Positions 1-42,017 of a DNA stretch of 64,000 nucleotides are shown here, piece by piece. The notes beneath the pieces are model-generated. The model saw nothing but the letters and a program-made list of their open reading frames with translations, had not been told where the DNA came from and ran no database searches. Source of the stretch: a virus; the IMG/VR virus record IMGVR_UViG_3300048883_000431, positions 32,001 to 96,000 of that record; one strand, written 5' to 3'. Position 1 is the stretch's first letter, and each line of letters opens with the position of its first letter. The translations under genes and the position numbers were made by a program.

Positions 1-861
1 GCGCTCCACAGCAAGGGGCATGTAGTGTCCGGGTGTTCGCGGCGCGGTCGCACACACAACTGTGGGCTCCACGAGCACATCCGGGTCTTCAAGGCGGACC
101 TCACCGACCCCGTGGCCTGCTTCTGGGCCGTCAACGGCATCGAGCCGACTGTCGTGGTCCACCTCGCCGGGGCCACGAACGTGCGGGACGCGGTGGCATC
201 GCCGCACGCCACACTCGCACTAAACGTGGGCGCACTCTTCAACCTCACGAACTTCCTGTCGCACGTCTGGCCGATCCGCTACATCGTGGCAAGCTCGTCC
301 GAGGTCTACGGCGACACGCTGGGCGTTCTGACCGACCTTACACCCCCGGCACCGAAGTCGGTGTACGGTGTCAGCAAGATGGCACAGGAGCATGTGCTGG
401 AGGAGCAGGTCAACGTCCGTACGTTTTGGAACATCAACCCCCTGCGCGCGGACAGCGCGATCTCCCAGTTCGCGCGGAAGATCGCCGAGGTCGAGGCGGG
501 GATGCGGGATGACGTGGATCACGGCGACCTGGAGTCGCTCAGGTCCTTCATGGACTACACCGACGTTGTCCGTGCTTACCTGGTTCTCATCGAGAGCGGC
601 GTGACGGAGGGCACCTACAACGTCGGGTCTGACCTAGCAACGGACGTCCACCGCATCGGCGACTACCTCGACATCTTGCGCGACATGGCGGCCTGCGACA
701 TCCCAACACGGACTAACATTCGGGACACCGGGGAGCGGGACGTGGTACACCCCGGACTGCCCGACATTAACCCCATGAAGGCGCTGCGGTGGGCTCCCAC
801 AAGCAGGCTGGAGGAGTCGCTCGCACACGCGCTCCACCACGCGCGGGGGCTGGTGGCATGA
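1..861 (+). CDS. NAD-dependent epimerase/dehydratase (GDP-mannose dehydratase / GDP-4-keto-6-deoxymannose reductase-like), 5' truncated by the window edge
   Basis: Frame open from base 1; VVHLAG, ASSSEVYG, catalytic YGVSK (YxxxK), HGDLESLRSFMD and YNVGS motifs of extended SDR sugar enzymes. Confidence 0.85.
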   Translation, partial: ALHSKGHVVSGCSRRGRTHNCGLHEHIRVFKADLTDPVACFWAVNGIEPTVVVHLAGATNVRDAVASPHATLALNVGALFNLTNFLSHVWPIRYIVASSSEVYGDTLGVLTDLTPPAPKSVYGVSKMAQEHVLEEQVNVRTFWNINPLRADSAISQFARKIAEVEAGMRDDVDHGDLESLRSFMDYTDVVRAYLVLIESGVTEGTYNVGSDLATDVHRIGDYLDILRDMAACDIPTRTNIRDTGERDVVHPGLPDINPMKALRWAPTSRLEESLAHALHHARGLVA

Positions 862-1982
862 GGGTACCGGGGAAGCTCACGCAGATATGGAAGTTAGCGG
901 ACGAGCTGTCCCGCTCCTTCACCAAGGACGAGCGCTCGGGGCGGAGCTTCGAGGTGCTTAGGTCCTGCGTGCGGGAAACGGCGTCAGTCGCGGAGCGTCA
1001 CCAACGTGCCCTCGCGGGACCCCTACCCGATGCACCGACCGGAGAACAGCAGATGATCGACTTCACGCCGCCCAAGCTAATCGAGGACGGGGACACCCCC
1101 AAGCCAAGACCGAAGCCGAGGCCGCCCGCACGCCCCCACAAGACGGTGCTCCCCCATGAGCACTTCCACGCGTTCAACCCGGTGGCATTCGAGAAGGCGA
1201 AGCGAGTGGGTGTGCCCAGGTTCTCCAGCTCCGGGCTAGGTATCGGGGACGTCCTCTTCGCTGTACCCGCCATCAAGGCGCTCGGCGGCGGCGAACTCAG
1301 CATCACCTGCTTCGACACGTTCTTCTCCTGGTCCCCGTCACACCCGTTCACCAGCGCCAGTTACCGGGGGCGCACCTACCACAACCTCGCGAAGTTCCTT
1401 GCGTCGCAGGACTACATCACGGAGTGCAAGGCGGTGTCCTATGATCCGTCAGTCTACTACGACGTGGAGTTCGACAACGTGCGCCACATCTGGCACCGTG
1501 TGGTGAATGAGAACATCCCCCTGCTGGATCTATACCAGAGCTACGTGGGCGGTAGGCTGCGACTCGACGACGCCTGGCTCACGCCCCCGGACGAGGTGTA
1601 CCCCGAGTTCCAAGACGCCGTGGTAATCAACATGAACGACCGGCGCGTCTGCGAGCTCGACCTCCGTGTGCTGGGCGACTACGAGCACGTCGTGTTCCTC
1701 GGGCTCCCCCGCGAGTGGGAATTCTTCCAGAATGAGTGGGGGATCAGCGCGACTCACCACGAGGCCAAGGACTTCTTCGATATGGCGTCACTGATGAACT
1801 CCTGTCGCATGTTCATAGGGTGCTCGTCGTCGCCCATCGTGCTTGCGGACGGACTCAACGTGGACCGTATCTACTGCCAGTGGGTCAGTAAGCCCCACCA
1901 CCAATCCGTGGGTGGGAACACAGTGACCGTGTCGACCGACGAGCAGTTCGTCGACGCACTCCTTGATCGGGGCATCCTATGA
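858..1982 (+). CDS. GT9-like (heptosyltransferase-type GT-B) glycosyltransferase with N-terminal extension
   Basis: ATGA overlap with upstream stop; GLGIGDVLFAVPAIKAL and FIGCSSSPIVLADGL motifs; Pro-rich linker before the GT domain. Confidence 0.7.
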   Translation: MRVPGKLTQIWKLADELSRSFTKDERSGRSFEVLRSCVRETASVAERHQRALAGPLPDAPTGEQQMIDFTPPKLIEDGDTPKPRPKPRPPARPHKTVLPHEHFHAFNPVAFEKAKRVGVPRFSSSGLGIGDVLFAVPAIKALGGGELSITCFDTFFSWSPSHPFTSASYRGRTYHNLAKFLASQDYITECKAVSYDPSVYYDVEFDNVRHIWHRVVNENIPLLDLYQSYVGGRLRLDDAWLTPPDEVYPEFQDAVVINMNDRRVCELDLRVLGDYEHVVFLGLPREWEFFQNEWGISATHHEAKDFFDMASLMNSCRMFIGCSSSPIVLADGLNVDRIYCQWVSKPHHQSVGGNTVTVSTDEQFVDALLDRGIL

Positions 1983-2173
1983 GCTTTCCCAAGTCCCTCC
2001 GCCGCCTCGACCCGCCGCCTGGACGGTTTACTAATATCCGCCAGGACGGGCTTGGGAGCGAAACCACCCGGTGCGCACAGCGCTACCTTGCCATTCCCCG
2101 CAGTGTGTGGAATACTATACTTGACGAGGCCGGGATGCTTCCGATCATGGAGCTCCTCAACTACGACGTATGA
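1979..2173 (+). CDS. small hypothetical protein
   Basis: ATGA-coupled to the upstream gene and fills the gap to the next RBS. Confidence 0.35.
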   Translation: MSFPKSLRRLDPPPGRFTNIRQDGLGSETTRCAQRYLAIPRSVWNTILDEAGMLPIMELLNYDV

Positions 2174-2186
2174 GAAAGGATCGCAC

Positions 2187-2834
2187 ATGTCCTGGACATT
2201 CGAGCCATCGTTTGAACGTAAGGCGTCGGTTGCGGCGCTGTTTGCTACGCTTCCGCACCGGGAGAAGATTGACGGCCCAGGCCGTGCGGGGGGCTCCCCA
2301 GACTACTACCCGGTCCTCCACGACGTGGCACGACTCATCGACGCCACGTCCGTGCTTGAAATCGGCGTCCGTCTTGGGTACGGCGCGATTGCGATACTTA
2401 GCGCCTCCCCGAGATGCGAGCGCTACGTGGGCGTGGATAACGAGTCCTACATCCCCGAATCGAACACCCTGGCCCTGGCGAATATCCTTCACGGACACGC
2501 GGGCTTCAACGCAAAGATCGTCCTCGACAACTCGGCAAAGGGACTTCCGCCGGAGGTGGGCAAGAAGAAGTTCGGACTGGCCTACGTCGACGGGAGTAAG
2601 GATAACATCGCCAAGGACGTGAAGAACGCCTGGGATGCCCTCTTGGTTGGCGGGTCGCTGCTCATTGACGACGTTCAGGTGGAAACCGAAACCCGTGAGC
2701 AGGCGGCGGACGGGCTGGCGTCCATTGGGGGCCAGTCAGAGATCGGCCCCATCATCGAGGTGTTTACGGGCACGGCGGAAGTCCCGAGAGGACTGTTGTG
2801 GGTAACCAAACTTCGCCCCCTCTCAGCAAACTGA
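2187..2834 (+). CDS. class I SAM-dependent methyltransferase (Methyltransf_24-like)
   Basis: GAAAGGA RBS; VLEIGVRLGYG motif I, YVGVD, AYVDGS, GGSLLIDD. Confidence 0.8.
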   Translation: MSWTFEPSFERKASVAALFATLPHREKIDGPGRAGGSPDYYPVLHDVARLIDATSVLEIGVRLGYGAIAILSASPRCERYVGVDNESYIPESNTLALANILHGHAGFNAKIVLDNSAKGLPPEVGKKKFGLAYVDGSKDNIAKDVKNAWDALLVGGSLLIDDVQVETETREQAADGLASIGGQSEIGPIIEVFTGTAEVPRGLLWVTKLRPLSAN

Positions 2835-3388
2835 CCCACGTTGGTCTGAACGTAGGGTGCGGTACAGACTACAGGGAGGGGTTTGTGAACGTGGACGCGT
2901 CCAATCACGGACAGCGGGTGGACGTGGTTCTGACAATTCCCCAAGACTCCCTCCTCGACGTAGTCGCCCCTGGGCAGTGCCACACCATCGTGTGTAACCA
3001 CATGCTGGAGCACCTACATAGGTGGGAGGCGGATGCTCTTTTACGAGAGTTCGTAGTTCTTCTATCCCACGGAGGGACACTGTCGCTGAGTGTCCCAAAC
3101 GTCGCGTGGATCGTGGCGAACATGTCCGAGGAAACTCTGCTTCGGTTCCTATACGGGGGGCAGGACGCCCCGCACCCAGGGGACTCGGACGTGAAGGCGC
3201 ACCGCCGCAGGACGAGCCCCGAACTGTTCGTCCACCGTTTTGGGTACACGCGGGCTACTCTGGAATCATCCCTCCTTCGGGCGGGACTAACCGACGTCGC
3301 CATCGTCGAGGATGGCCAACAACTGCATTCGGTATCCAAGTGTTCCCGGCATCACGACGGAGGCGTGGGCGATAGGGCTCCCCAGTAG
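2798..3388 (+). CDS. class I SAM-dependent methyltransferase (type 11-like, glycan-locus type)
   Basis: LNVGCGTDYREGFVNVD, NHMLEHL, LSHGGTLSLSVPN. Confidence 0.8.
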   Translation: MGNQTSPPLSKLTHVGLNVGCGTDYREGFVNVDASNHGQRVDVVLTIPQDSLLDVVAPGQCHTIVCNHMLEHLHRWEADALLREFVVLLSHGGTLSLSVPNVAWIVANMSEETLLRFLYGGQDAPHPGDSDVKAHRRRTSPELFVHRFGYTRATLESSLLRAGLTDVAIVEDGQQLHSVSKCSRHHDGGVGDRAPQ

Positions 3389-4355
3389 GCAACTGATCAT
3401 CGAAGCCACGGCGAACAACATCGGCGACACGTTCGTCAACGTAGGAGCACGTCGTCTGGTTCCGGGATTAGGGTCTGGGTACGTCCAGTCCCTTCCGCCC
3501 GAGAACTACCAGCACGACCCGGCGTGGCTGGAGGAGCGCACCGCCCTGAGCTTCGACGTAATCTACATCGTGGGGACCCCGTGGTTCTTCCGAGGGTGGG
3601 CGACCTCGGACAAGTCCAAGATGCTCGCGAGGGTCGTGGAGCGCTACCCCAACACACCGAAGATAATGCTGAGTCCTGGCCACTGCGTTCCCAGCGTTGG
3701 GTATGGGACCGTCTACGATTCCCCAGGGCTTGGGGATTCCGACCTCGTGAACCATATGGACCTCATCGTGTGCAGGGACCGGTATGCCTACGACTACACC
3801 AGTGGGCTATCCGACTGCGCGGATCGAGTCGTCCTCGCCAAGTGTGCCTCGCACGCGGCGTACTTGCCGGAGGACTTCGGGAACCCGCCACAGTCTGGGT
3901 CGGTCTGCGTGTGGATGGACTTCGCGTCACTGTCGGGACACGCGGGCTACCGGGCTTACCAAGCCCTCAGCGCCATAACGCCGGAGCAGTGGCAGTCGTC
4001 TATTGACCACGAGGCCACGGTGGCCGACGCAGTATGCGTCAACTCCGCGCGGGACGCAGAGGTGTACACCGCCAAGTTCGGGCGACCACCGGACATGAGC
4101 CACCGCGACCCCCACGACTACGCGGAGTGGGTGTCCCACTTTGAGAGCATGGTGACGTCGCGTGTACACTCGGCCACGATTGGGCACTCCCTCGGACTGG
4201 ACGTAAGACTCCTGGCGGCTGACACCCGTGCCGATACCGCCTACCTCTGCGGCGTGAGCTCCTACCTCGACCTCCCCGCCACCGAGACCACCCACACCGT
4301 GACTAGCTGGGATGACGTAAATGATAGAATTCTCTCACTCAGGGGCGCTCGGTGA
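3312..4355 (+). CDS. polysaccharide pyruvyl transferase family protein
   Basis: NNIGD, IVCRDRYAY and VTSRVHSATIGHSLG match the NxGD / RD / SRxH motifs of this family. Confidence 0.7.
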   Translation: MANNCIRYPSVPGITTEAWAIGLPSRQLIIEATANNIGDTFVNVGARRLVPGLGSGYVQSLPPENYQHDPAWLEERTALSFDVIYIVGTPWFFRGWATSDKSKMLARVVERYPNTPKIMLSPGHCVPSVGYGTVYDSPGLGDSDLVNHMDLIVCRDRYAYDYTSGLSDCADRVVLAKCASHAAYLPEDFGNPPQSGSVCVWMDFASLSGHAGYRAYQALSAITPEQWQSSIDHEATVADAVCVNSARDAEVYTAKFGRPPDMSHRDPHDYAEWVSHFESMVTSRVHSATIGHSLGLDVRLLAADTRADTAYLCGVSSYLDLPATETTHTVTSWDDVNDRILSLRGAR

Positions 4356-5118
4356 CATCCTCTACTCACTGCCGACGATCCGCGCAATGGGCGGCGGTCA
4401 CCTCACCCTCATCCTTAACAACCCCGCCGATCCGCCCATAGAGGAACCAACTGACGATTGGGTTCTTCTCGCCCCGACGGCCGGGGAGTTCATACGCCCG
4501 CTTCTGGAGATACAGGATTACATACACGGGGTCTCCCTCGTGGAGTTCAAAGACTACGAACCGGACCCGGATCGGGTCGATCTGGACGCCTGGCGTAAGT
4601 CCCCCGTTCGGTTCTGGGACGGCATCCCGCTGGCCCACAGATACGTGTTTGTGACGGGTCTTCCGGTGGACGCTGAGTCCGCGTATGTCCACGTCGACCC
4701 GTTCGTGGACACGGAGCCCTACGTCGTCCAACAGCTAACCCGCAGGTACCGTGGGGGGTCGCGGGTGTCCCACGACGCCTTAGCGAGCACGCCCCACAAA
4801 CTCGTCTTCGTAGGCTGGCCACACGAGTTTGAGACCCTCGCAGCCCCTGGGGCGGTGTACCGTCCGGTGTCGAACATGGTCGAGATGGCCAGCCTCATCG
4901 CGGGGGCCGTGTGTTTTGTAGGGAATCAGTCCTGTGGGTGGGCTCTGGCGCAGGGGATGAAGACCCCCCGCGTACTGGAGGGCTTCGGCCGCTCGCTCTG
5001 TGACGGTATGAAGCCTGGGCCTAACGGTGTCGCGTGCCTAGTCCAGGCCCATTACGACGACGCTCTCCGCCGCTTCGGCGTGCTCCCCGAAGACTTCGGA
5101 CTTATGCACGAGGGGTGA
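4321..5118 (+). CDS. GT9-like glycosyltransferase
   Basis: SGALGDILYSLPTIRAMGGG and FVGNQSCGWALAQGMKTPRVLE; paralogue of 858-1982. Confidence 0.75.
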   Translation: MIEFSHSGALGDILYSLPTIRAMGGGHLTLILNNPADPPIEEPTDDWVLLAPTAGEFIRPLLEIQDYIHGVSLVEFKDYEPDPDRVDLDAWRKSPVRFWDGIPLAHRYVFVTGLPVDAESAYVHVDPFVDTEPYVVQQLTRRYRGGSRVSHDALASTPHKLVFVGWPHEFETLAAPGAVYRPVSNMVEMASLIAGAVCFVGNQSCGWALAQGMKTPRVLEGFGRSLCDGMKPGPNGVACLVQAHYDDALRRFGVLPEDFGLMHEG

Positions 5119-5125
5119 CCCGCAC

Positions 5126-5134: not shown

Positions 5135-5165
5135 ACAGCAGACAAACACGCGAGGGAGGTAGGCA

Positions 5166-6092
5166 ATGCCGGTAGTTTCAGGGAACCTGACATCCACTGT
5201 ACGTGTGAAGGAGGTGATGGACCTACAGTCCTCCGACACGCGCGACGACGCGATCATACACTCGCTCATCAACAGTGCCTCCGCGCTCGTTTCCTCCTAT
5301 TGCAAGCGCGACTTCAAGTACGGTAGTGTCACCGAGCGCATCGACGGGCTTGGCGACTGCTACATACTCACGGACAAGTACCCGATCATCGCGGTGACCA
5401 CGCTGCACATCGACAGCCTGCGCACGTTTGGTGCCACGTCGCTGCAGACCGAGGATACCCATTACTACGTTGAGGCGGCTACGGGCAAGATCAGGGGATT
5501 GACCTCGGGTGTGTTCACATGGGGGGTCGCGAACATCCAGGTCGTATACACCCACGGACCCGCCGCGTACAAGATGAGCGCATCTAACAACACCCTAGCC
5601 TTCGTCGAGAACGGCACCAGCAGGACCGCCACGGTCGCCGTGGGCGATTACAATGCAGTATCCTTCGCCACTGCCCTGCAGACCGCCATGGACGCCGTAA
5701 GCGGCGGCGATACGAACTACACGGTCACCTACGACGTGACCGGCGAGACCTTCACCATCACGATGGCCGGGACGTCAGTGAGCGAGCTCCAGCTAAACTG
5801 GACGACCAGCACGTACATGGCGACGCTCATGGGCTTCGATACCGGGGCGAACGACACTGGGGCGACCACCTACATCAGCGACGAGCCGAGCCCAGGCGTC
5901 ATCACCGGGATCGAGGAGGCCACGCGTGACTTGGTGCAGTACTGGTCGCGGTTGGTCTACGAGCGCGACTGGGGTGTGCGTCGTCGCGAGGTTCGGGAGA
6001 CGGTGACGATGTTCGAGATCACCGACATCCCGCCGCTTATTAGGCTCCAGCTTGACCTACACGTCAGGCGTTACGTGAGGACGACCTACTAA
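5166..6092 (+). CDS. head-tail connector/adaptor protein with inserted Thr-rich domain
   Basis: DAIIHSLINSASALVSSYCKRDF, NIQVVYTHG and IEEATRDLV fit gp6/gp15-type adaptors; position at the start of the neck module. Confidence 0.7.
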   Translation: MPVVSGNLTSTVRVKEVMDLQSSDTRDDAIIHSLINSASALVSSYCKRDFKYGSVTERIDGLGDCYILTDKYPIIAVTTLHIDSLRTFGATSLQTEDTHYYVEAATGKIRGLTSGVFTWGVANIQVVYTHGPAAYKMSASNNTLAFVENGTSRTATVAVGDYNAVSFATALQTAMDAVSGGDTNYTVTYDVTGETFTITMAGTSVSELQLNWTTSTYMATLMGFDTGANDTGATTYISDEPSPGVITGIEEATRDLVQYWSRLVYERDWGVRRREVRETVTMFEITDIPPLIRLQLDLHVRRYVRTTY

Positions 6093-32977: not shown

Positions 32978-32986
32978 CGTTACCCC

Positions 32987-34060: not shown

Positions 34061-34764
34061 GCCAGGTCCTTCCTTACCATGTACGCGTGCGGGTGTTCCC
34101 ACAGTGCTCTCGGCCATTTCGGGTCTTCGACGAAGTCGCCCTCAAGGAGGGACACGAACTCCGCCACACCGCCGCGTCCGTGCACCTCAGCAGCTATCCG
34201 CCTCATCCGTGTCAGGGTGGCGCGCGGTGCGTTCGCCACCACGTCCCACTCCGCCCCCTCGCAGTCCATCTTGAGTATCTGGACCTCACGGCTGGGGAAG
34301 TCCCGCAGTGCCGACCCCAGCGTGATGGTGTGGGTGACATAGTGACCACTGACCCACACCGGCGCGGTTTCCCCCACAAATCTGTGCGGTAAGTCGTCCA
34401 TGGGGATTTTGACGGTCAGTGCCTCTCCGTCCACCCGGCCTATTGCGCGGCACCACAGAACGGGGGCCAGTGGGTGATCGTTGAGTGCGAAGTGGCACGC
34501 CTGTAGAGCTACGTTCTCAGGTATGGGCTCCACGATAACCGCCTGACACCCAAACAAGGCGGAGGCAGCGAGTCCGAACGCCCCGATATGACCGCCAACG
34601 TCCAGGACCAGGTCGCCTGCCCGCAGCCCCGCCTCGGCGAGACGGTAGACATCCTTGTGTATCACCTGGTGGGCTATGGACTTATCGTTGGTCCCCTCCC
34701 GATGGAACAGACGGAGGTCCCGCTTGGTGACAATCGACGTGCGAGCCATCGGCTGACTATACAT
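34057..34764 (-). CDS. FkbM-family methyltransferase
   Basis: VLDVGGHIGAF, VEPIPEN, ILKMDCEGAEWD, IAAEVH. Confidence 0.9.
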   Translation of the reverse strand: MYSQPMARTSIVTKRDLRLFHREGTNDKSIAHQVIHKDVYRLAEAGLRAGDLVLDVGGHIGAFGLAASALFGCQAVIVEPIPENVALQACHFALNDHPLAPVLWCRAIGRVDGEALTVKIPMDDLPHRFVGETAPVWVSGHYVTHTITLGSALRDFPSREVQILKMDCEGAEWDVVANAPRATLTRMRRIAAEVHGRGGVAEFVSLLEGDFVEDPKWPRALWEHPHAYMVRKDLA

Positions 34765-34765
34765 G

Positions 34766-35842: not shown

Positions 35843-35850
35843 GTCCGCCC

Positions 35851-36426
35851 CTACATGTAGACGAACGCTAGTCCGGGGGCACGGGTGTCGGCCCAGACGA
35901 CTCGGAATCGACCGGCGGACTCGATGTCGGATACCACACCACGAACGTCCGCCGACACGGAGTCGTGTATGGCGACCATCCCGCCAGACCTAACCATGGG
36001 GGAGTAGTGGTTCCAGTCGCTGGTGCAGCCCCCGACGGTATGATCCCCGTCTATGAACAGTAGATCGACCCCGGAGGCGTAGGCGTCAAGTATCGTCGAC
36101 ACCGAGTCCACCGAGGGCATATCCCGAGAGCTCCCCACAATGTGGTGGTAGGCAAACCCCTCCTGGGAGGCGAAGTCGGACACGGCACGTCGGTGGTGGT
36201 CCATATCGGGCTGGTGGAGATCGACGGATATGAGGAGGTCGGGCCGGGTGAGTGCCAGGAGGGCGGTTGTTCCGAACCTGAAGGTCCCGATCTCAAGTAT
36301 CGTGCGGGCCTTGCCCATGTGAGCCGCCGCCGCCGAGAGTATGAGTTGCCTCTCGTGCTCGGGGGTGTTGCTTTCGTGCATCGCTAGGTGGGTCATAAGT
36401 CGCACACTCATCAAGCAGTACCCCAT
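35851..36426 (-). CDS. class I SAM methyltransferase (Methyltransf_24-like)
   Basis: ILEIGTFRFGT, DLLFIDGDHT, GGMVAIHD. Confidence 0.88.
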   Translation of the reverse strand: MGYCLMSVRLMTHLAMHESNTPEHERQLILSAAAAHMGKARTILEIGTFRFGTTALLALTRPDLLISVDLHQPDMDHHRRAVSDFASQEGFAYHHIVGSSRDMPSVDSVSTILDAYASGVDLLFIDGDHTVGGCTSDWNHYSPMVRSGGMVAIHDSVSADVRGVVSDIESAGRFRVVWADTRAPGLAFVYM

Positions 36427-37328
36427 CCTGATAGAGCGTCGTTAAGCTGCTGGTCAACCACGCCGTGGGAGAAATACCTGACCGCCGCGCGCCGGGCGCT
36501 CGCCCCACGCTCCGCAAGCCAGTCCATATCTCGGGGTGTTGGGGAGGTTATCCGGGCTAGGCCGGACGAGCTGTGCATCCCGGACGAGCTGAACTCTGTC
36601 CTGTCTTGGGGAACAGTCCTGAACCGAGGGAGCCCCACGTCCCCGGACCCCAGGTAATCGGACACGTTGTACCGACACTGGGGGGAACTCTTGTGGTGCT
36701 GGTGGTTGGGAAGGGAAAGAGGCATCCCCACCATAGCGGCCTCGACGACGCGCGGGGTGTAGTGCGTGCGTGGGTCACCGCAGTCATAGTACAGTCGGTG
36801 GGATCGCATAGCGGACAGTCGGGACCCAGGGGAGACATCGTTGCACGCCGCCTTTGCCCCCATGTCGACCGCCGCTTCTCCCATGACCGTGCTCTGCTGT
36901 GCGTTCCTGCCTGAGTTGAGTCCGTTTCTTGTGTGCGTGGACACCGGGTCGTTGGCGTGGGGGGTGTCCATGTAGTAGAGAACTGACTGGAACTTACCGT
37001 CCCACCCGACCCACCAGGAGGGGTCCACCCCGTACCGCACGAGGGACCCCCACCCAAGCTGCTCCACCATGGAGTCCTCGTACAGGAGCAGCAGCCCACC
37101 GCAGTTGGACAGTGCTTCGATTTCGGGAAGTCCGTCCGTTGGGATAGCTTTGTCCAGGTGGAGGATGGTGGGTCCGTCGTGCATCATCGCGGCGGCTACG
37201 GTCGGGTCGTTGGTGTAGGACACATCCGTATCACCACCCCCCGTGGACGTCCCGTGCCCCAGACGCTCGAACGCCTGACGCGTCGCCCGCCCCACGTCTG
37301 ATATGCCCGTTCCGAATCTAACCCTCAC
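36411..37328 (-). CDS. GT4-like glycosyltransferase, divergent paralogue of 34766-35842
   Basis: AGGAGG RBS plus GTG; YGVDPSWWVGWDG vs FGRDPDTWKGWTG; VVEAAMVGMP. Confidence 0.65.
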   Translation of the reverse strand: MRVRFGTGISDVGRATRQAFERLGHGTSTGGGDTDVSYTNDPTVAAAMMHDGPTILHLDKAIPTDGLPEIEALSNCGGLLLLYEDSMVEQLGWGSLVRYGVDPSWWVGWDGKFQSVLYYMDTPHANDPVSTHTRNGLNSGRNAQQSTVMGEAAVDMGAKAACNDVSPGSRLSAMRSHRLYYDCGDPRTHYTPRVVEAAMVGMPLSLPNHQHHKSSPQCRYNVSDYLGSGDVGLPRFRTVPQDRTEFSSSGMHSSSGLARITSPTPRDMDWLAERGASARRAAVRYFSHGVVDQQLNDALSGWGTA

Positions 37329-37950
37329 TCGACGCCTCCTTGATGACCACCCCGTACCCGGTCTGGTTTGGGGGGACGTGCTTCTCCAGTCTGTAGGGGT
37401 GGTCCGACGCCACCAGCTCTTCCCAGAATATGGACACGTTTGGCTCGCCGTATGCGTTGGGTGGCTCGCCCCCGGTCTCCACGTCGTGGATGAAGATGAC
37501 CGCTCTGTCCGCCGACAGCGCTGCGTAATCCGCAAAGTCCCGCCTCACACCGTGCAGGCTGTGGTCCCCGTCTACCACAACCGCGTCGGGGGCGTGGCCT
37601 ACCGCGCTGATTATGGACCGAAGCATGAGCTTGACTTCCCCGTGGTGTGAGTCCCCCTCCAGGGGGTAGTAGTCGACCCCGAGACGGTCGCACACCTTGT
37701 GCATCTTTGAGTATACCATACCGCGAGACAGTCCGGGTAGGTCAATCGAGACGAAAACCTCCGGCTGCATCTTCACGAGACGGTAGGCTAGCCCGCACAT
37801 GCGGGTCCCTATCTCCAGTATAAACCTGGGGGTCCCCCCAAGCTCTCGGGACGTGACCCTCTCGAAAATTTCCAACTCGGCTTGACTTGTGGCCTGGTGC
37901 TCCTCCGAGGCCCATCGCAGCAGAGGAGGATCGTTCGCATCGTCACGCAT
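37318..37950 (-). CDS. class I SAM methyltransferase (Methyltransf_24-like)
   Basis: ILEIGTRMCG, VSIDLP, VVVDGDHS, IFIHDV. Confidence 0.85.
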   Translation of the reverse strand: MRDDANDPPLLRWASEEHQATSQAELEIFERVTSRELGGTPRFILEIGTRMCGLAYRLVKMQPEVFVSIDLPGLSRGMVYSKMHKVCDRLGVDYYPLEGDSHHGEVKLMLRSIISAVGHAPDAVVVDGDHSLHGVRRDFADYAALSADRAVIFIHDVETGGEPPNAYGEPNVSIFWEELVASDHPYRLEKHVPPNQTGYGVVIKEASSEG

Positions 37951-38647
37951 GTGGCTCCCCCTCCAGGGTGTACCCGAACTCCTCTATCTCATGGACGCAC
38001 GCGCGTGCCACCACGTGTACGTCGGCCCGCGACAGAACCTCGTTGGGGGGCCGAGCGTCCATCCGAACTCCCCCGCCGATGTGGGGTACCCCCACGGTGA
38101 GTCCAAGCCCAAGCCTGTCACTCAGACGCCCCAGCTCGCCGTGTAGGTCCTCGTACCGCATCACGTGGTCCACCAGTATCGTATTGTCCCACGTGTACAT
38201 GCTCCAGTTTGACTCCCGCCCGAGGAAGAGTCCCCCCTGGATTGCCTCGGACAGGGTTGGGTCGCCGGTTACGCCGGGGTTCCCGTCCCACCCCATGCCG
38301 CGCTCATGGTAATACTGTGAGACGATCCTGTCCCAGGGATTGCGCTCCGTGCAGAACGTGTAGTAGTCACGCCACTCCCGTGGGAAGACGTCCCGTATTT
38401 TGACGGCCGTCATGTGGGGCGGCCACAGCACGTCGGCGTGTGTCCAGGGCCTACTGGACGGAAACAGTGGCCCAAAGCAGTTCTGCGGGCCGCGCGGGCC
38501 GTCCTCACTTCCCCTGCCGTCCCCCAGAGCTAGTGGGGTGATGATGTCCTCGTCCCCGCATACCGAGGATAGTGCCCACTCGATGCTACTTCCCGCCACC
38601 TTAGCGCACTTCACGTATATAAATCTGTGTCTGTGGGAGATTATCAC
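37943..38647 (-). CDS. sulfotransferase (Sulfotransfer_2-like), copy 3
   Basis: MIISHRHRFIYVKCAKVAGSS (5'-PSB), RNPWDRIVSQY (3'-PB), VMRYEDL. Confidence 0.85.
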   Translation of the reverse strand: MIISHRHRFIYVKCAKVAGSSIEWALSSVCGDEDIITPLALGDGRGSEDGPRGPQNCFGPLFPSSRPWTHADVLWPPHMTAVKIRDVFPREWRDYYTFCTERNPWDRIVSQYYHERGMGWDGNPGVTGDPTLSEAIQGGLFLGRESNWSMYTWDNTILVDHVMRYEDLHGELGRLSDRLGLGLTVGVPHIGGGVRMDARPPNEVLSRADVHVVARACVHEIEEFGYTLEGEPHA

Positions 38648-39345
38648 TGGGCAATCCCATCGTGGAGCGTGTAGCCGAACTCCCGGATTATGGAGGCGGA
38701 GTCTTTGGCGATGATCTCGGCCTGTTTAGAGGTAAGGACCAGTGACGGGTGCCTCCTGTCACGTCGGAACTCCGCATGGAGCCTCGGGAGTACCGGGACC
38801 GGCACCCCCAGCCTACCGCAGAAGTCCCGAAGCTCCGCATCGTAGTTCTCGTACCGCATCACGTGGTCCACTATGATGTTGTCGTCCGAGTCCGTGTAGA
38901 ATCTCCTGTTGGTGACCTGCACACCGAGTAGCCCCTGGTCTAGGCACTCCGAGAGGGTGGGTCGGTCGACGTCGTCGCCCGTGAACTTCTTGGAGTAGTA
39001 TGCCTCGTAGTAGTGCGAGATGATTCGGTCCCACGGGTTGCGCTCCGTGACGAACGTGTAGTAGTCCTCCCATTCCTTGGGAAACTCCGCCATGATCGCG
39101 GAGGGCTCCGTGTGGGCGACCCACCTGGTGTCCGCCCTGGTGGGCGGGCGGTTCGGGGGGTACAGGGGGTAGTAGCAGTTCTGCGCACCACGGTTTCCCT
39201 CGACCTCCCACCGTGGGTCCGGGTACCCGTACGGGGTGACGATGTCGTCGGGACCGCACAGTGACGAGAGTCCGAATTCGAGGCTCGTTGCGCCGACATT
39301 GACGCACTTGACATGGATGAAGCGGTGCTTGTGGGAAATTATCAA
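38644..39345 (-). CDS. sulfotransferase, copy 2 (PSB Lys replaced by Asn)
   Basis: FIHVKCVNVGATS, RNPWDRIISHY, MRYENY. Confidence 0.8.
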   Translation of the reverse strand: MIISHKHRFIHVKCVNVGATSLEFGLSSLCGPDDIVTPYGYPDPRWEVEGNRGAQNCYYPLYPPNRPPTRADTRWVAHTEPSAIMAEFPKEWEDYYTFVTERNPWDRIISHYYEAYYSKKFTGDDVDRPTLSECLDQGLLGVQVTNRRFYTDSDDNIIVDHVMRYENYDAELRDFCGRLGVPVPVLPRLHAEFRRDRRHPSLVLTSKQAEIIAKDSASIIREFGYTLHDGIAQ

Positions 39346-40013
39346 CGGGCAACCCCGTCGTGTAGTGTGTAGCCGAACTCACGTATGATGCTCGCGCTGT
39401 CCCGGGACACAATGTCTGCGTCAGCCTGTGTGAGAACCTCGGAGGGGTGCCGCCTGTCGCGTCTGAACTTCGCGTGCAGCCTCGGCAACGTCGGTACCTC
39501 GACCCCCAGCCGGTCGCACAGCGCTGCCAGCTCCGCATCGTAGTTCTCGTACCGCATCACGTGGTCCACTATGATGTTGTCGTCCGAGTCCGTGTAGAAT
39601 CTCCTGTTGGTGACCCGCACACCGAGTAGCCCCTGGTCTAGGCACTCCGAGAGGGTGGGTCGGTCGACGTCGTCGTGGTGCTGGTAGTATGCCCCGTAGT
39701 AGTGCGAGATGATGCGGTCCCACGGGTTGCGCTCCGTGACGAACGTGTAGTAGTCCTCCCATTCCTTGGGAAACTCCGCCATGATCTCGGGGGGCTCCGT
39801 GTGGGGGACCCACCTGGTGTCCGCCCTGGTGGGCGGGCGGTTCGGGGGGTACAGGGGGTAGTAGCAGTTCTGCGCACGGTTTCCCCCGACCTCCCACCGT
39901 GGGGTGATGATGTCGTCGGGACCGCACAGTGACGAGAGTCCGAATTCGAGGCTCGTTGCACCGACCTTGGCACACTTGACGTGGATGAACCGATGCTTGT
40001 GGGATATAATCAC
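39342..40013 (-). CDS. sulfotransferase, copy 1
   Basis: GTG start overlapping upstream TGA; FIHVKCAKVGATS, RNPWDRIISHY. Confidence 0.85.
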   Translation of the reverse strand: MIISHKHRFIHVKCAKVGATSLEFGLSSLCGPDDIITPRWEVGGNRAQNCYYPLYPPNRPPTRADTRWVPHTEPPEIMAEFPKEWEDYYTFVTERNPWDRIISHYYGAYYQHHDDVDRPTLSECLDQGLLGVRVTNRRFYTDSDDNIIVDHVMRYENYDAELAALCDRLGVEVPTLPRLHAKFRRDRRHPSEVLTQADADIVSRDSASIIREFGYTLHDGVAR

Positions 40014-41056
40014 TCCGCGTGCTCCTTGAACGGGATGATCAGACTGCGGGAGTCCCTTGTATCCCTCGGTCCCTCGCCCAGCGGCGCGGCAAGGACCCAA
40101 GACAGGATGTCATCGTCGGAGACCAGCCTATCGGTGCAGTGGAGGTTCAGGGAATCGTCGTGCTGTAGGGTGAGGAAGTTCAGGAGTCCCTCACGCCCCT
40201 CGGCAGTGTCGGGGTAACCGTTCCTGGCGACCGCGAGAGTCACGTTGTTGCGGTCCCACAGGGTACACCCCAGGTGGGTCCACGTCTCGGCACTGACCCG
40301 AACGTCGGCGGCGTCGAGGGCGGCAATCGCCCTGAATATGTCGTTCTTCTGGTCGACGTGGGTCACCAGCCCCGGGTGGAGGGCCCCCGCAGCCCTTGCC
40401 GCGACCGTCCGCGCGTAATACTGTGGGTCGCTCAAGTCCATCACTCCGCCCCCCAGCCACACGACGGCCCACCCTGCCCCGAGGAGTCCCTCCGTGATGT
40501 CCAGCCACGCGTGCCCGTCAAGGTGTGTGCGTCCGAAGGGGGCAAGGACGGCGAGGGGGCGTCCGCAAGCCCACGACTGGAACTCGCGGACGTACCCTTC
40601 GTACTCCGAAGGGACGTGCAGTCCGGTGTGGGCATAGGGGACCACCACACGCCTTGAATCCCTAAGACGTCGGTTCCACGCGCGCAGGGCATACGGAACC
40701 ACGGTCAGGGGGTCGTCCGTCCCTGACGGCGGGGCGAAGTCGTCGGGCATTCCGAGTGACTTGACCACCATGCCAGCCTCGGAGGGGTCGATGCAGACAA
40801 CATGACTGAGTCTGGGGTCGCATGACAGTAGCCTCTCGCTGGCCTTCCGGCGTGTTCGACCAGAAACGGACTCGTCGTACACGAGAACCACGCCCGCCTC
40901 CACGTCGCACACCCTTGCGACGTCCAGGAGATCGGGCACACGCCTAACGATGAACCGTATGACGTCCCCGATCCCGGTACCCGGGTAATCCCATAGGACG
41001 CCCGAAGGGAGACTCTTGGGGGAGCGGGAGACTGCGGGCCCCATGCTAGGCTCCAA
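40010..41056 (-). CDS. divergent GT9-like glycosyltransferase
   Basis: GTGIGDVIRF, LAVLAPFG, GWAVVWLGG, AIAALDAADVRVSAET. Confidence 0.55.
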   Translation of the reverse strand: MEPSMGPAVSRSPKSLPSGVLWDYPGTGIGDVIRFIVRRVPDLLDVARVCDVEAGVVLVYDESVSGRTRRKASERLLSCDPRLSHVVCIDPSEAGMVVKSLGMPDDFAPPSGTDDPLTVVPYALRAWNRRLRDSRRVVVPYAHTGLHVPSEYEGYVREFQSWACGRPLAVLAPFGRTHLDGHAWLDITEGLLGAGWAVVWLGGGVMDLSDPQYYARTVAARAAGALHPGLVTHVDQKNDIFRAIAALDAADVRVSAETWTHLGCTLWDRNNVTLAVARNGYPDTAEGREGLLNFLTLQHDDSLNLHCTDRLVSDDDILSWVLAAPLGEGPRDTRDSRSLIIPFKEHAE

Positions 41057-42017
41057 GGAGTAGGGAGGTTCGCCCGGAATCGGTCTCGGGCACCCCGGTG
41101 CACCACCGAACCAAGTCGCATGGGGTCGGTAGATGGCGGACGAACACCCGGTTACTGGCGATTCCGTCCTGGTGAATGAGATCGGAGATTCCCCTATTGG
41201 ACGGAGTGTACTCCCCCGAGGGGGCGCGGCAAAGATCGCCGACGAGGAAGAAGTGGCGGTCCCACAGGGTGAGGACGGTTAAGGACCATGTAACCGTGGA
41301 CATCCCCGCCCTGCACAGGTCAGCGGCGGCTACGACCCTGAATATACTCCCCGCGTCTTGGCGCAGACGTGAAACGCTCCCGGGGAAGTCCTCGTGGAGC
41401 TTCCTTACCATGGGCTCCGCCGGTATGCGGATCGCACCCGGGTGTCCCTTCTGCCGAACTCGGTCGAACTCCCCCCCACCGGATATGATAAGGGCCCACC
41501 CAAGCCGGAGGAGCCTCCTTGCGGCTTTGTCTAGAAACCCCACATCGTAGTCCCCCCTACCGAACGGGCACATGAGAAGCGAGGGGGCCCGATCCACCAG
41601 AAGGCGCATCTCCTGAACATAGTCCCCGTAGTTGGGGGGCGCGTACAGCCCTTGGGGTACCGTGCAAATAGGAGCTTGAGCTACGGCGTCGGCCTTGTCC
41701 CGATGCTCCAGATCAAGTATGGTCGGGGTGGGGGTCCCCCCAAGGTGGTCGGCGAGTTCCTTTCTGTCCGCCATTATCATACGGTCGATGCGCGGGTCGT
41801 GCTCAAGTGCTTCGAGGATGCCCCTTCGCCGCATTGCCCCAGCAGGGGCCCGTCCCTGGGACAGAACTACTGTGTTGGGCACGCCCAGTGACTTGGCGAG
41901 AGATGACTTGAGGTGCGCCTCCGCGACGGTATTTCGGAGGGCGTCCCCGATGCCCGCCGGGAACACCGAGATGACCTGATCCTCCCCGAGCAGCGAGAGG
42001 TCCTGTGTTACGTCCAT
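41046..42017 (-). CDS. divergent GT9-like glycosyltransferase, paralogue of 40010-41056
   Basis: PAGIGDALRN, LMCPFG, GWALIISGG, SIFRVVAAAD, TLWDR shared with its neighbour. Confidence 0.55.
   Translation of the reverse strand: MDVTQDLSLLGEDQVISVFPAGIGDALRNTVAEAHLKSSLAKSLGVPNTVVLSQGRAPAGAMRRRGILEALEHDPRIDRMIMADRKELADHLGGTPTPTILDLEHRDKADAVAQAPICTVPQGLYAPPNYGDYVQEMRLLVDRAPSLLMCPFGRGDYDVGFLDKAARRLLRLGWALIISGGGEFDRVRQKGHPGAIRIPAEPMVRKLHEDFPGSVSRLRQDAGSIFRVVAAADLCRAGMSTVTWSLTVLTLWDRHFFLVGDLCRAPSGEYTPSNRGISDLIHQDGIASNRVFVRHLPTPCDLVRWCTGVPETDSGRTSLLLGA

What the first reader, a model, noticed from the sequence alone, without database searches (positions are those of the whole stretch)
1..42017. Phage-encoded ~21-gene glycan assembly and decoration system woven through the virion module (candidate sulfated/methylated/pyruvylated virion glycan coat)
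Seen: 11 GT genes (12 domains: 6 GT9-like, 4 GT4/GT-B, 2 GT2), 5 SAM methyltransferases, 3 sulfotransferases, 1 pyruvyltransferase and 1 NDP-sugar reductase/epimerase. They lie in three blocks: before the neck genes (1-5118), inside the tail operon (8519-10644) and right after the tail tip (29884-42017). No flippase, polymerase, ligase or GtrAB-type membrane gene is visible, which argues against O-antigen conversion. Known: some mycobacteriophages glycosylate capsid and tail tube using a few GTs encoded among structural genes, and giant viruses build methylated/pyruvylated fibril glycans. Inference: this phage builds a much more complex, anionic, capped glycan in the cytoplasm on virion proteins, for shielding, surface mimicry or adhesion. 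I know of no characterised tailed phage with sulfotransferases plus pyruvylation in such a pathway.
Basis: partly seen in the sequence, partly recalled or inferred. Interest (0 to 1): 0.93.

Follow-up and report, generated by a model that had tools for sequence, protein, structure and literature searches.

The report
Phage glycan-tailoring genes among virion genes
An uncultured 112-kb tailed phage carries about 23 soluble sugar-adding, methylating, sulfating and pyruvylating enzyme genes packed between and beside its head and tail genes, which most likely decorate its own particle with a complex sugar coat, an unusually large version of something already seen in mycobacteriophages and hinted at in many environmental phages.

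Summary
The 21 ORFs are real, strongly coding and tightly packed. These are 1 NDP-sugar epimerase/dehydratase, 5 methyltransferases, 1 pyruvyltransferase (at the Pfam cut-off), 3 genuine PAPS-type sulfotransferases and 7 glycosyltransferase genes (GT2; double GT9; two GT9-like; three weak GT-B). A fourth GT-B candidate (K) has only weak support. J, T and U are ORFans with no assignable fold.

Two more pathway genes lie left of the window: a sixth methyltransferase and a heptose-7-phosphate kinase (HldA-like).

No polytopic membrane protein, integrase, TET/JBP enzyme or thymidylate-synthase-like hydroxymethylase was found in the 112-kb record. This argues against serotype conversion and DNA glycosylation.

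Distant relatives (capsid 29-44% identical) usually place the adaptor 0.4-2 kb after the capsid gene. Here the gap is 6.4 kb, and two relatives also hold GT2, methyltransferase or epimerase genes at that junction.

Best reading: cytoplasmic glycosylation of virion proteins, as in Corndog/Che8 (about 0.5). Main rival: host envelope remodelling (about 0.25).

The uniqueness claim is overstated. At least 223 IMG/VR contigs encode this sulfotransferase family, cultured cyanophages and phiRSL1 have annotated ones, and P-SSM2 has 24 'LPS' genes. This scan has also reported similar cassettes on other DNA (e.g. e1-3482852). No chemistry is shown.

The parts
1..861 (+). A: NDP-sugar epimerase/dehydratase (SDR); starts 56 nt left of the window
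   Evidence: PF01370 102.6 bits and GDP_Man_Dehyd 91.7 bits. NCBIfam gives no equivalog; best is GalE at 52.8 bits.
858..1982 (+). B: GT9-like glycosyltransferase, paralogue of F (C-terminal ~250 aa)
   Evidence: blastp to F, E 6.5e-8. F-family profile against the GT9 domains of I: hhalign probability 93%. The ATG at 858 overlaps the stop of A. No Pfam hit.
2187..2834 (+). C: class I SAM methyltransferase (Methyltransf_24 / O-MT-like)
   Evidence: PF13578 36.4 bits (cut-off 26.3) and PF01596 25.3 bits. Start refined.
2798..3388 (+). D: probable SAM methyltransferase (Methyltransf_23-like, sub-threshold)
   Evidence: PF13489 25.8 bits against a cut-off of 27. A homologue sits between GT2 genes at the same junction in relative L094.
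3312..4355 (+). E: polysaccharide pyruvyltransferase-like
   Evidence: PF04230 25.4 bits against a cut-off of 25.3, profile positions 1-270 of 280. No NCBIfam hit. No tblastn hit in GenBank phages.
4321..5118 (+). F: GT9-like glycosyltransferase of a phage-typical family
   Evidence: ESM Atlas: nearest clusters are 96-100% viral. The model (pTM 0.88) has TM 0.71 to a GT9 cluster and 0.69 to a viral DUF5672+GT9 cluster. 21 IMG/VR relatives found. hhalign to GT9 domains: 93% probability.
5166..6092 (+). Head-tail adaptor (context; right border of the left block)
   Evidence: phrog_442, E 5.9e-13. Homologues lie 0.4-2 kb after the capsid gene in most relatives.
7589..8416 (+). Probable major tail (tube) protein (context)
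   Evidence: phrog_476 is weak, E 0.0077. Assigned mainly by position before the chaperones and TMP.
8519..9649 (+). G: GT-B (GT4-like) glycosyltransferase, weak
   Evidence: Three GT1-type Pfam families at 18-19 bits, below cut-off. About 23% identity over 80% of its length to annotated glycosyltransferases of Streptomyces, Rhodococcus and Arthrobacter phages, and to a GT-FkbM fusion of Microcystis phage Mel-JY01.
9646..10644 (+). H: GT2 glycosyltransferase; its end overlaps the next (chaperone-position) gene at 10628
   Evidence: PF00535 44.7 bits against a cut-off of 23.3.
25268..29884 (+). Large tail tip protein (Tal-like), translationally coupled to I (context)
   Evidence: phrog_3558 tail protein, E 1.5e-10. 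TAATG overlap at 29882-29886.
29884..32031 (+). I: unassigned ~90-aa N-terminal region plus two GT9 (heptosyltransferase-family) domains
   Evidence: PF01075 72.2 bits in two stretches. Heptosyltransferase I/II/III NCBIfam models score 42-54 bits, below equivalog cut-offs. The N-terminal region matches nothing in the phage.
31961..32977 (-). J: ORFan; GT-A/GT2 claim not verified
   Evidence: No Pfam hit, no PDB hit, no homologue in 5.8e9 proteins, and hhalign to H gives nothing. GC3 0.83. Its 3' end overlaps the 3' end of I by 71 nt.
32987..34060 (-). K: ORFan, weakly GT-B-like
   Evidence: No homologue. AF2 single-sequence model failed, pLDDT 31. hhalign to M/O gives P 0.0033 over 129 co-linear C-terminal columns.
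34057..34764 (-). L: FkbM-family methyltransferase
   Evidence: PF05050 34.1 bits. TIGR01444 56.8 bits against a cut-off of 37.7.
34766..35842 (-). M: GT-B-like glycosyltransferase, weak
   Evidence: PF13524 16.6 bits, sub-threshold. Paralogue of O, E 5.6e-15. hhalign to the G family gives P 0.0012 over 108 columns.
35851..36426 (-). N: Methyltransf_24 SAM methyltransferase
   Evidence: PF13578 42.6 bits and RMNT_CmcI 20.7 bits.
36411..37328 (-). O: paralogue of M (GT-B-like); likely GTG start at 37328 behind an AAGGAGG site
   Evidence: No Pfam hit of its own.
37318..37950 (-). P: Methyltransf_24-like, paralogue of N
   Evidence: PF13578 24.9 bits against a cut-off of 26.3. blastp to N, E 3e-9.
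37943..38647 (-). Q: Sulfotransfer_2 sulfotransferase with intact PAPS-binding motifs
   Evidence: 46-50% identical to R and S. 5'-PSB AKVAGSS and 3'-PB RNPWDRxxS are present.
38644..39345 (-). R: sulfotransferase paralogue, 83% identical to S, with the 5'-PSB Lys replaced by Asn
   Evidence: VNVGATS against AKVGATS.
39342..40013 (-). S: Sulfotransfer_2 sulfotransferase
   Evidence: PF03567 22.0 bits, at the cut-off. 351 homologues carrying PF03567. AF2 pLDDT 88. Top PDB fold hits are all PAPS sulfotransferases.
40010..41044 (-). T: ORFan, paralogue of U; GT9 claim rests on a short N-terminal GIGD motif only
   Evidence: An exhaustive phmmer search over 1.8e9 representatives finds only itself and U. 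hhalign to GT9, F-family, G-family and M/O profiles gives nothing.
41046..42017 (-). U: ORFan, paralogue of T
   Evidence: blastp T-U, E 2e-16. The ESM model is poor (pLDDT 0.39); its best structural neighbour is a GT9 cluster at TM 0.49, which is a lead only.
42024..42608 (-). Sigma-70-family factor gene directly upstream of the minus-strand block (context)
   Evidence: Sigma70_r2 24.4 bits; r4_2 is weak.

Best explanation
The phage encodes a large, entirely soluble glycan-building and glycan-tailoring toolkit.

**Components**
- Sugar-nucleotide epimerase/dehydratase.
- Heptose-7-P kinase.
- GT2, GT9 and GT-B transferases.
- Six SAM methyltransferases.
- A pyruvyltransferase.
- Three PAPS sulfotransferases, one probably inactive.

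**Proposed mechanism (inferred)**
It acts in the host cytoplasm late in infection on the phage's own structural proteins. Transferases add sugars, probably including heptose, from host or phage-boosted nucleotide sugars to Ser/Thr-rich exposed parts of head, neck, tube or fibre proteins. Methyl, pyruvate-ketal and sulfate groups then cap the chains.

**Shown**
- Enzyme families for 17 of the 21 genes.
- Solubility of all of them.
- Placement inside the virion operon.
- Recurrence of such cassettes at the same junction in relatives.

**Inferred**
- The acceptor is a virion protein.
- The three blocks cooperate.
- Sulfate and pyruvate end up on the glycan.
For: 1. Gene order runs TerL, portal, protease, capsid, then [MT, epimerase, B, C, D, E, F], adaptor, tube, [G, H], chaperones, TMP, Dit, Tal, [I]. 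All are on one strand with overlapping stops and starts.
2. In 80 capsid relatives the adaptor usually follows the capsid gene within 0.4-2 kb. Here the gap is 6.4 kb.
3. Relative L094 has capsid, a 131-aa ORF, a weak GT2-like ORF (11.3 bits, below cut-off), GT2, MT, GT2, adaptor. Relative L097 (GC 0.64) has two GT2 genes plus an epimerase in a 7.8-kb gap, and a GT1 gene just after the adaptor.
4. No polytopic membrane protein exists in the whole record, so there is no Wzx, Wzy, WaaL, GtrA/B or polyprenyl-phosphate GT. No integrase was found.
5. No TET/JBP or thymidylate-synthase-like enzyme is present to make a hydroxymethyl base.
6. Precedent: Corndog's O-MT and GT genes lie between portal and protease. 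They were proposed, and later reported, to modify capsid and tail tube (PMC4351075, PMC11600133, PMC12619734).
8. Candidate acceptors are Ser/Thr-rich: fibre 21%, adaptor 22%, the 123-aa post-capsid protein 21%.
Against: - No glycan or acceptor has been observed.
- The largest block (12 genes, 31961-42017) is on the opposite strand. It lies behind a sigma-factor gene and in line with the recombination and DNA-methylase genes, so it may not be late-expressed.
- GT9 enzymes and a heptose-7-P kinase are classic LPS-core functions.
- Soluble GTs can use host lipid-linked acceptors.
- Similar large sugar-gene sets in cyanomyoviruses were interpreted as host-surface modifiers (PMC1079782).
- tblastn with G, I, F, S and E found no mycobacteriophage enzyme.
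- The junction may simply be a tolerated site for accessory (moron) gene insertion.
- Four of the 21 genes have no secure function.
- The host is unknown.
Confidence: 0.5

Rival explanations
1. Host envelope remodelling. The soluble transferases act at the inner face of the membrane on host lipid-linked intermediates such as LPS core, O-antigen or EPS repeat units, or secondary cell-wall polymer. The host's own flippases export the altered, heptosylated, methylated, pyruvylated or sulfated glycan. This would block superinfection or stop progeny from sticking to debris.
For: - GT9 is the LPS heptosyltransferase family.
- The phage encodes an HldA-like heptose-7-P kinase (TIGR02198, 254.7 bits).
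- Homologous kinases, and sulfotransferase-fold proteins annotated as sulfotransferases, occur in cyanomyoviruses.
- P-SSM2's 24 sugar genes were interpreted as altering the host surface (PMC1079782).
- From general knowledge: pyruvylation, sulfation and O-methylation are typical of bacterial EPS and cell-wall polymers.
- The 12-gene block is co-oriented with non-structural genes.
Against: - No integrase was found, so the phage is apparently lytic.
- There is no initiating polyprenyl-phosphate GT, flippase, polymerase or ligase.
- Two blocks are embedded in, and coupled to, structural genes.
- GT/MT cassettes recur at the capsid|adaptor junction in relatives.
- DnaB's nearest cellular relatives are Terrabacteria, many of which lack LPS. 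This is a weak hint only.
Confidence: 0.25
2. This is not one system. The three blocks are independent accessory cassettes acquired separately: a head-proximal cassette, a tube-proximal GT pair, and a paralogue-rich GT/MT/ST array. They have different acceptors, some perhaps on the virion and some on the host, and some members are decaying.
For: - The blocks are separated by 3-19 kb and lie on two strands.
- Relatives carry different subsets at different junctions, including MT24 between TerL and portal and GT2 14 kb after the adaptor.
- R has lost the PAPS-binding Lys.
- J, K, T and U are fast-evolving ORFans.
- Sulfotransferase islands in other viral contigs are unrelated to this phage.
Against: - Paralogous pairs (B/F, M/O, N/P, T/U, Q/R/S) arose within this genome.
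- GT9-like enzymes occur in both the left and right blocks, which fits one sugar chemistry.
- Tight packing and high GC3 argue for maintained function.
Confidence: 0.15
3. DNA hypermodification. The transferases glycosylate hydroxymethylated bases of the phage DNA, and the methyl and sulfate groups decorate that glycan.
For: Phage GTs are known to hypermodify 5hmC with diverse glycans (bioRxiv 10.1101/2023.12.21.572611, listed). The phage has two DNA methylases.
Against: - The methylases are of the N6/N4 type, not C5.
- No Tet_JBP and no thymidylate-synthase-like hydroxymethylase is present in the 92%-complete record.
- The genes sit among virion genes rather than nucleotide-metabolism genes.
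Confidence: 0.03

Closest known systems
Mycobacteriophage virion glycosylation (Corndog gp35-38, Che8 gp108-110, Myrna; Freeman et al. 2023, known here through PMC11600133, PMC12363180, PMC12619734 and PMC4351075)
   Same: Soluble GT genes, with an O-methyltransferase, are inserted inside the virion structural operon of a siphovirus. The enzymes are not virion components. The glycans go on capsid and tail tube.
   Different: - That system has 3-4 genes; this one has about 23.
- It has no sulfotransferase, pyruvyltransferase, GT9 or heptose kinase.
- The insertion site differs: portal|protease there, against capsid|adaptor, tube|chaperone and after the tail tip here.
- tblastn found no sequence kinship for five of the enzymes.
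- No glycan has been demonstrated here.
Cyanomyovirus 'LPS gene' clusters (P-SSM2: 24 genes in two clusters; PMC1079782), and the heptose-kinase and sulfotransferase genes of S-CAM3, S-SSM7, S-T4 and P-SSM7
   Same: Large phage-borne sets of epimerase, transferase and synthase genes in an apparently lytic phage. Homologues of the HldA-like kinase are present, and sulfotransferase-fold proteins annotated as sulfotransferases occur in these phages. Function is untested.
   Different: - Those are T4-like myoviruses, with clusters outside the core structural operon.
- They were interpreted as host-surface modification.
- Here two blocks are interleaved with, and coupled to, head and tail genes of a siphovirus.
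Sulfotransferase/GT/MT islands in uncultured viral contigs (IMG/VR), and earlier notes of this scan (e1-3482852, e1-3356249, e1-5908666)
   Same: Sulfotransfer_2 genes, often in tandem copies, sit next to GT8, GT2 and GT92 genes, FkbM and other methyltransferases, sugar-nucleotide enzymes and APS kinase.
   Different: These contigs are not kin of this phage. This phage adds a pyruvyltransferase, a GT9 family expansion and a heptose kinase, but has no APS kinase.
Autotransporter heptosyltransferases TibC/Aah
   Same: A cytoplasmic GT9-type enzyme uses ADP-heptose to O-glycosylate Ser residues of a beta-helical surface protein and is encoded beside its substrate gene. Here a double-GT9 gene is coupled to the tail-tip gene near a repeat-rich fibre gene.
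   Different: No specific similarity to TibC or Aah was tested, and the acceptor is unknown.
Giant-virus fibril and capsid glycan machineries (Megavirinae, chloroviruses; PMC10117803, listed)
   Same: A virus-encoded, host-independent cytoplasmic glycosylation system with methylated or pyruvylated sugars. Giant viruses also encode proteins with a sulfotransferase fold.
   Different: Those are eukaryotic viruses with full sugar-nucleotide pathways and experimentally determined glycan structures. There is no homology beyond shared superfamilies.

Membership tests
Phage virion glycosylation system (Corndog/Che8 type) | Soluble GT (and MT) genes encoded inside the virion structural gene array | tested here: met
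   The left block lies between capsid and adaptor. G and H lie between tube and chaperones. I is coupled to Tal. No TM segments were found.
Phage virion glycosylation system (Corndog/Che8 type) | Glycan covalently attached to capsid or tail subunits (MS, glycostain) | not testable with these tools
   This needs particles or co-expression. The phage is uncultured and its host is unknown.
Phage virion glycosylation system (Corndog/Che8 type) | Sequence kinship to the characterised mycobacteriophage enzymes | tested here: not met
   tblastn of G, I, F, S and E against 50,697 phage records gave no mycobacteriophage hit. G hits only Streptomyces, Arthrobacter, Rhodococcus and Microcystis phages. 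H and M were not tested.
Sulfotransfer_2 (PF03567) PAPS-dependent sulfotransferases | Profile match at the curated cut-off | tested here: inconclusive
   S scores 22.0 bits, equal to the cut-off. Q (18.7 bits) and R (15.5 bits) are below it. However, 35-41%-identical homologues nearly all carry PF03567.
Sulfotransfer_2 (PF03567) PAPS-dependent sulfotransferases | 5'-PSB Lys loop and 3'-PB Arg/Ser motif | tested here: met
   S and Q have K-V-G/A-x-[ST]-S and RNPWDRxxS. R keeps the 3'-PB motif but has Asn in place of the PSB Lys.
Sulfotransfer_2 (PF03567) PAPS-dependent sulfotransferases | Sulfotransferase fold | tested here: met
   AF2 model with pLDDT 88 and pTM 0.86. All of the roughly 50 top PDB Foldseek hits are PAPS sulfotransferases, the best being 3rnl at E 3e-4.
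GT9 (PF01075, heptosyltransferase family) | Profile match above cut-off | tested here: met
   Met for I only: 72.2 bits in two domains. F and B have no Pfam hit, but hhalign gives 93% probability and the structure gives TM 0.71. T and U are not met.
GT9 (PF01075, heptosyltransferase family) | Use of ADP-heptose as donor | not testable with these tools
   There is indirect support only. An HldA-like kinase lies in the same genome. GmhA, GmhB and HldC were not found.
Polysaccharide pyruvyltransferase (PF04230, CsaB/WcaK type) | Profile match at the curated cut-off over the full domain | tested here: met
   E scores 25.4 bits against a cut-off of 25.3, covering profile positions 1-270 of 280. This is marginal. 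No NCBIfam hit and no phage homologue were found.
Serotype-converting / O-antigen modification modules (GtrABC, Wzx/Wzy/WaaL-dependent) | Polytopic membrane components (flippase, polymerase, ligase, GtrA/B/C) and usually a temperate phage | tested here: not met
   A hydropathy scan of all 135 called ORFs found no protein with more than 2 hydrophobic segments. The flagged glyco-gene segments are Rossmann strands. No PF00589 integrase was found.
Phage DNA glycosyl-hypermodification systems | An enzyme that makes the hydroxymethyl base (TS-like hydroxymethylase or TET/5mYOX with a C5-MTase) | tested here: not met
   PF12851 and PF00303 are absent from the record. The DNA methylases are of the N6/N4 type.
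ADP-heptose biosynthesis pathway (GmhA-HldA/E-GmhB-HldC/E-HldD) | Presence of the pathway enzymes | tested here: inconclusive
   Only the kinase is present: TIGR02198 at 254.7 bits, E 1e-75, below the equivalog cut-off of 345 but far above ribokinase at 80 bits. SIS_2, CTP_transf_like and GmhB are absent. The epimerase matches the HldD model at only 34 bits.

The most novel reading that the evidence does not exclude
A tailed phage assembles, entirely in the cytoplasm and without lipid carriers, a heptose-containing glycan on its own head, neck and tail proteins. The glycan is O-methylated, pyruvylated and sulfated, giving an anionic, capped glycoprotein coat. This would be the first sulfated virion glycan of any bacterial virus. 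Head-proximal, tube-proximal and fibre-proximal enzyme sets would each serve the neighbouring structural protein.
Probability: 0.3. Interest if true: 0.85.

Novelty: new variant of a known kind. Interest (0 to 1): 0.6.

Why it matters
If these enzymes decorate the particle, phage virion glycosylation would no longer be a small actinophage curiosity of 3-4 genes. It would become an elaborate, modular post-translational system with charge-bearing caps (sulfate, pyruvate). That has consequences for adsorption, for avoiding non-productive binding, for environmental stability and for immune recognition of therapeutic phages.

The phage also supplies a compact set of soluble enzymes that could be tested in vitro: a double GT9, compact phage-type GT9-like enzymes, and ~225-aa (223-234 aa) sulfotransferases.

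The same enzyme classes recur in hundreds of environmental viral contigs. A single biochemical demonstration would therefore annotate a large, currently uninterpreted class of phage genes. If the target is instead the host envelope, this is a large lytic-phage surface-remodelling system, which would also be of interest.

Tried and rejected
- Megablast of 12 kb against GenBank phages gave no match.
- Single-protein pattern scans for relatives of F, R, TerL and the HldA-like kinase found nothing.
- A shallow profile of B/F/T/U against the GT9 domains of I, and against PDB, gave nothing. A deeper F-family profile later did hit GT9.
- The search for homologous proteins for K and J returned only self fragments. 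The exhaustive search for T returned only itself, U and low-complexity noise.
- PDB phmmer for J, K and M gave nothing significant.
- The AF2 single-sequence model of K was unusable, with pLDDT 31.
- The N-terminal ~90 aa of I shows no similarity to any other protein of the phage.
- Host inference from DnaB gave only a vague Terrabacteria lean.
- DNA hypermodification and serotype conversion were considered and rejected, for the reasons given under the rival explanations.
- The genome search 'relatives' is not available for virus records.

Full report
**What the DNA is**

The window is bases 32001-96000 of a 112,229-bp IMG/VR virus record that is linear and estimated 92% complete. GC content is about 62%.

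Left of the window lie DnaB, a PolA-type polymerase, TerL, portal, an XkdF-type protease, a probable scaffold and an HK97-fold capsid protein.

The window then continues on the same strand with:
- a head-tail adaptor (5166-6092);
- neck genes;
- a probable tube protein (7589-8416);
- chaperone-position genes;
- a 2222-aa tape measure protein;
- Dit;
- a 766-aa repeat-rich fibre;
- a LamG-containing protein;
- a 1538-aa tail-tip protein.

From 31961 onwards almost everything is on the minus strand. This stretch holds the glycan block, several sigma-70-type factors, two N6/N4 DNA methylases, a dual-specificity phosphatase, RecT, Gp157, a beta clamp and RuvB.

No integrase was found. The nearest cultured capsid is Microcystis phage Mvi-JY20, at 30% identity. 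No close relative exists in the collections I could search.

**Checking the observation**

A GC3-based gene call recovers the 21 ORFs, with GC3 of 0.70-0.84. Refined starts show an almost gap-free arrangement with start/stop overlaps.

*Secure assignments*
- Epimerase/dehydratase A.
- Methyltransferases C, L and N above cut-off, and D and P just below. P is a paralogue of N.
- GT2 H and the double-GT9 I.
- The three sulfotransferases.

*The sulfotransferases*
- S has 351 database homologues, nearly all carrying PF03567.
- The family alignment shows the 5'-PSB and 3'-PB motifs.
- An AF2 model built on that alignment (pLDDT 88) retrieves only PAPS sulfotransferases from the PDB.
- R is 83% identical to S but has Asn in place of the PSB lysine.

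*The pyruvyltransferase*
E sits exactly at Pfam's cut-off but covers the whole profile.

*F and B*
They have no Pfam hit. F belongs to large, almost purely viral protein clusters. Its Atlas model superposes on GT9 proteins at TM 0.71. A 21-sequence family profile matches the GT9 domains of I at 93% hhalign probability.

*G, M and O*
They have sub-threshold GT1-type hits and a co-linear C-terminal profile match to each other. G has distant homologues annotated as glycosyltransferases in actinophages.

*K*
K is an ORFan with a weak match to M/O (P 0.0033).

*J, T and U*
All three are ORFans. No family, structure or homologue could be found.

*Summary of the count*
- '11 GT genes' becomes 7 supported, 1 weak and 3 unassigned.
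- The other classes hold.
- Two related genes lie outside the window: a Methyltransf_23 gene between the capsid region and A, and a PfkB kinase 17 kb upstream.
- That kinase matches the heptose-7-phosphate kinase model at 254.7 bits, against 80 bits for ribokinase.
- GmhA, GmhB and HldC are absent.

**What the surroundings say**

A hydropathy scan of all 135 called ORFs finds no polytopic membrane protein. The phage therefore brings no flippase, polymerase, ligase, GtrA/B or polyprenyl-phosphate transferase. Every glyco enzyme is soluble.

The record lacks TET/JBP and thymidylate-synthase-like enzymes. The usual route to glycosylated DNA bases is therefore missing. It also lacks APS kinase, so PAPS must come from the host.

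**Comparative evidence**

I built a capsid alignment from four relatives and retrieved 80 loci with capsids 29-44% identical.
- In most loci where the adaptor is recognisable, it starts 0.4-2 kb after the capsid gene. In this phage the gap is 6.4 kb.
- Two relatives have the same kind of insertion.
  - L094 reads capsid, a 131-aa ORF, a weak GT2-like ORF (11.3 bits, below cut-off), GT2 (99 bits), an MT homologous to D, GT2 (52 bits), adaptor.
  - L097 (GC 0.64) has two GT2 genes and an epimerase homologous to A in a 7.8-kb gap, plus a GT1 gene 1.6 kb after the adaptor.
- Other relatives carry an N-like methyltransferase between TerL and portal.

Glycan genes therefore recur at structural-gene junctions in this lineage, with changing content. 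This matches an earlier follow-up of this scan on other DNA (e1-3482852).

**Sulfotransferases in other viruses**

An alignment-based scan found at least 223 IMG/VR contigs with relatives of S. Many carry 2-6 tandem copies.

A Pfam tally of 150 neighbouring ORFs in 14 such loci gave:
- 23 Sulfotransfer_2;
- 6 GT8;
- 6 cytidylyltransferase-like;
- 4 GDP-mannose dehydratase/epimerase;
- 3 UDP-glucose dehydrogenase;
- 3 GT92 and 3 GT2;
- several methyltransferases, including FkbM;
- 2 APS kinases.

tblastn of S against 50,697 GenBank phage records found nothing. A fold search against BFVD, however, shows annotated sulfotransferase-fold proteins in Ralstonia phage phiRSL1, Prochlorococcus phage P-SSM7, several Synechococcus phages and many giant viruses.

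Homologues of the heptose kinase are likewise annotated in cyanomyoviruses. P-SSM2 was reported in 2005 to carry 24 putative LPS genes in two clusters, interpreted as host-surface modification (PMC1079782).

Large phage sugar-gene sets, and phage sulfotransferase genes, are therefore not new as annotations. Their function remains untested.

**Mechanism**

The best-supported reading is late, cytoplasmic glycosylation of virion proteins, followed by methyl, pyruvyl and sulfate capping.

*For this reading*
- Embedding in, and coupling to, the structural genes.
- Recurrence at the same junction in relatives.
- Absence of any export or lipid-carrier machinery.
- The apparently lytic lifestyle.
- Absence of a DNA-modification route.
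- The Corndog precedent, where an O-methyltransferase and three GTs between portal and protease were proposed, and later reported, to modify capsid and tail tube (PMC4351075, PMC11600133, PMC12619734).
- The GT9 expansion plus a heptose kinase suggests a heptose-rich glycan.
- From my own knowledge, GT9-related TibC and Aah heptosylate beta-helical adhesins in the cytoplasm. This gives a mechanistic analogy for the double-GT9 gene that is coupled (TAATG overlap) to the tail-tip gene near a repeat-rich fibre.

*Against this reading*
- The 12-gene block is on the other strand, behind a sigma-factor gene.
- GT9 enzymes and HldA are classic LPS-core functions.
- Soluble GTs can work on host lipid-linked acceptors.

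I put virion glycosylation at about 0.5, host envelope remodelling at about 0.25, 'several independent cassettes with mixed targets' at about 0.15 and DNA modification at about 0.03.

**Novelty and score**

This is a new, unusually elaborate variant of a known kind. It has about 23 genes. It combines three sulfotransferases, a pyruvyltransferase, six methyltransferases, a GT9 family expansion and a heptose kinase, all interleaved with siphovirus head and tail genes.

It is not categorically new, because virion glycosylation, phage 'LPS' clusters and phage sulfotransferase genes are all on record. This scan has also already flagged many similar cassettes.

Nothing chemical is shown, the host is unknown and four genes are unassigned. 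I score interest at 0.6.

Noticed in passing
L002:2015-3082 (+), i.e. genome 14015-15082, 17 kb left of the window: A PfkB-family kinase that matches the D-glycero-beta-D-manno-heptose-7-phosphate kinase model (TIGR02198, 254.7 bits, E 1e-75) far better than any other sugar kinase. It stands alone, without GmhA, GmhB or HldC. Homologues are annotated in cyanomyoviruses (S-CAM3, S-SSM7, S-T4).
   Followed up: partly
   Followed up: partly
window 42024-42608 and 49522-50568; L003:10160-10768; L002:7053-7736: At least four sigma-70-family factor genes are spread over the genome. One sits directly upstream of the minus-strand glycan block. This suggests phage-controlled temporal transcription.
   Followed up: no
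window 38644-39345 (-): Sulfotransferase paralogue R is 83% identical to S but has the PAPS 5'-phosphosulfate-binding Lys replaced by Asn. It may be inactive or repurposed, for example as a binding module.
   Followed up: yes
window 31961-32031: The 3' ends of the convergent genes I (+) and J (-) overlap by 71 nt. This is unusual, and no terminator-like site was detected between the two arms.
   Followed up: no
window 31961-34117 and 40010-42017 (-): J, K, T and U are strongly coding (GC3 0.73-0.83). They have no homologue outside this phage in 5.8 billion clustered (J, K) or 1.8 billion representative (T, with U as its only relative) proteins. T and U are paralogues.
   Followed up: yes
L004:1716-4608 (-), genome 97716-100608: A MoxR-type AAA ATPase sits next to a VWA-domain protein. 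This pair is known from chaperone-like and some defence-related systems. Its role in this phage is unknown.
   Followed up: no
window 43990-44547 (-): A dual-specificity protein phosphatase (DSPc, 47 bits) lies between a DNA methylase and the Gp157/RecT recombination genes.
   Followed up: no
L039, L043-L045, L059, L062, L069, L071, L085 (IMG/VR contigs): Unrelated viral contigs carry 4-6 Sulfotransfer_2 paralogues within 20 kb. Nearby are GT8/GT92, cytidylyltransferase, GDP-mannose dehydratase and APS-kinase genes. This is a recurrent, uncharacterised viral sulfated-glycan gene island.
   Followed up: partly
L089:4750-8430 (Microcystis phage Mel-JY01, PP395634.1): A 1226-aa protein annotated 'methyltransferase FkbM' has an N-terminal region homologous to G (GT-B-like). 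It is a GT-MT fusion next to a structural protein gene and a 640-aa cytidylyltransferase-like gene in a cultured cyanophage.
   Followed up: no
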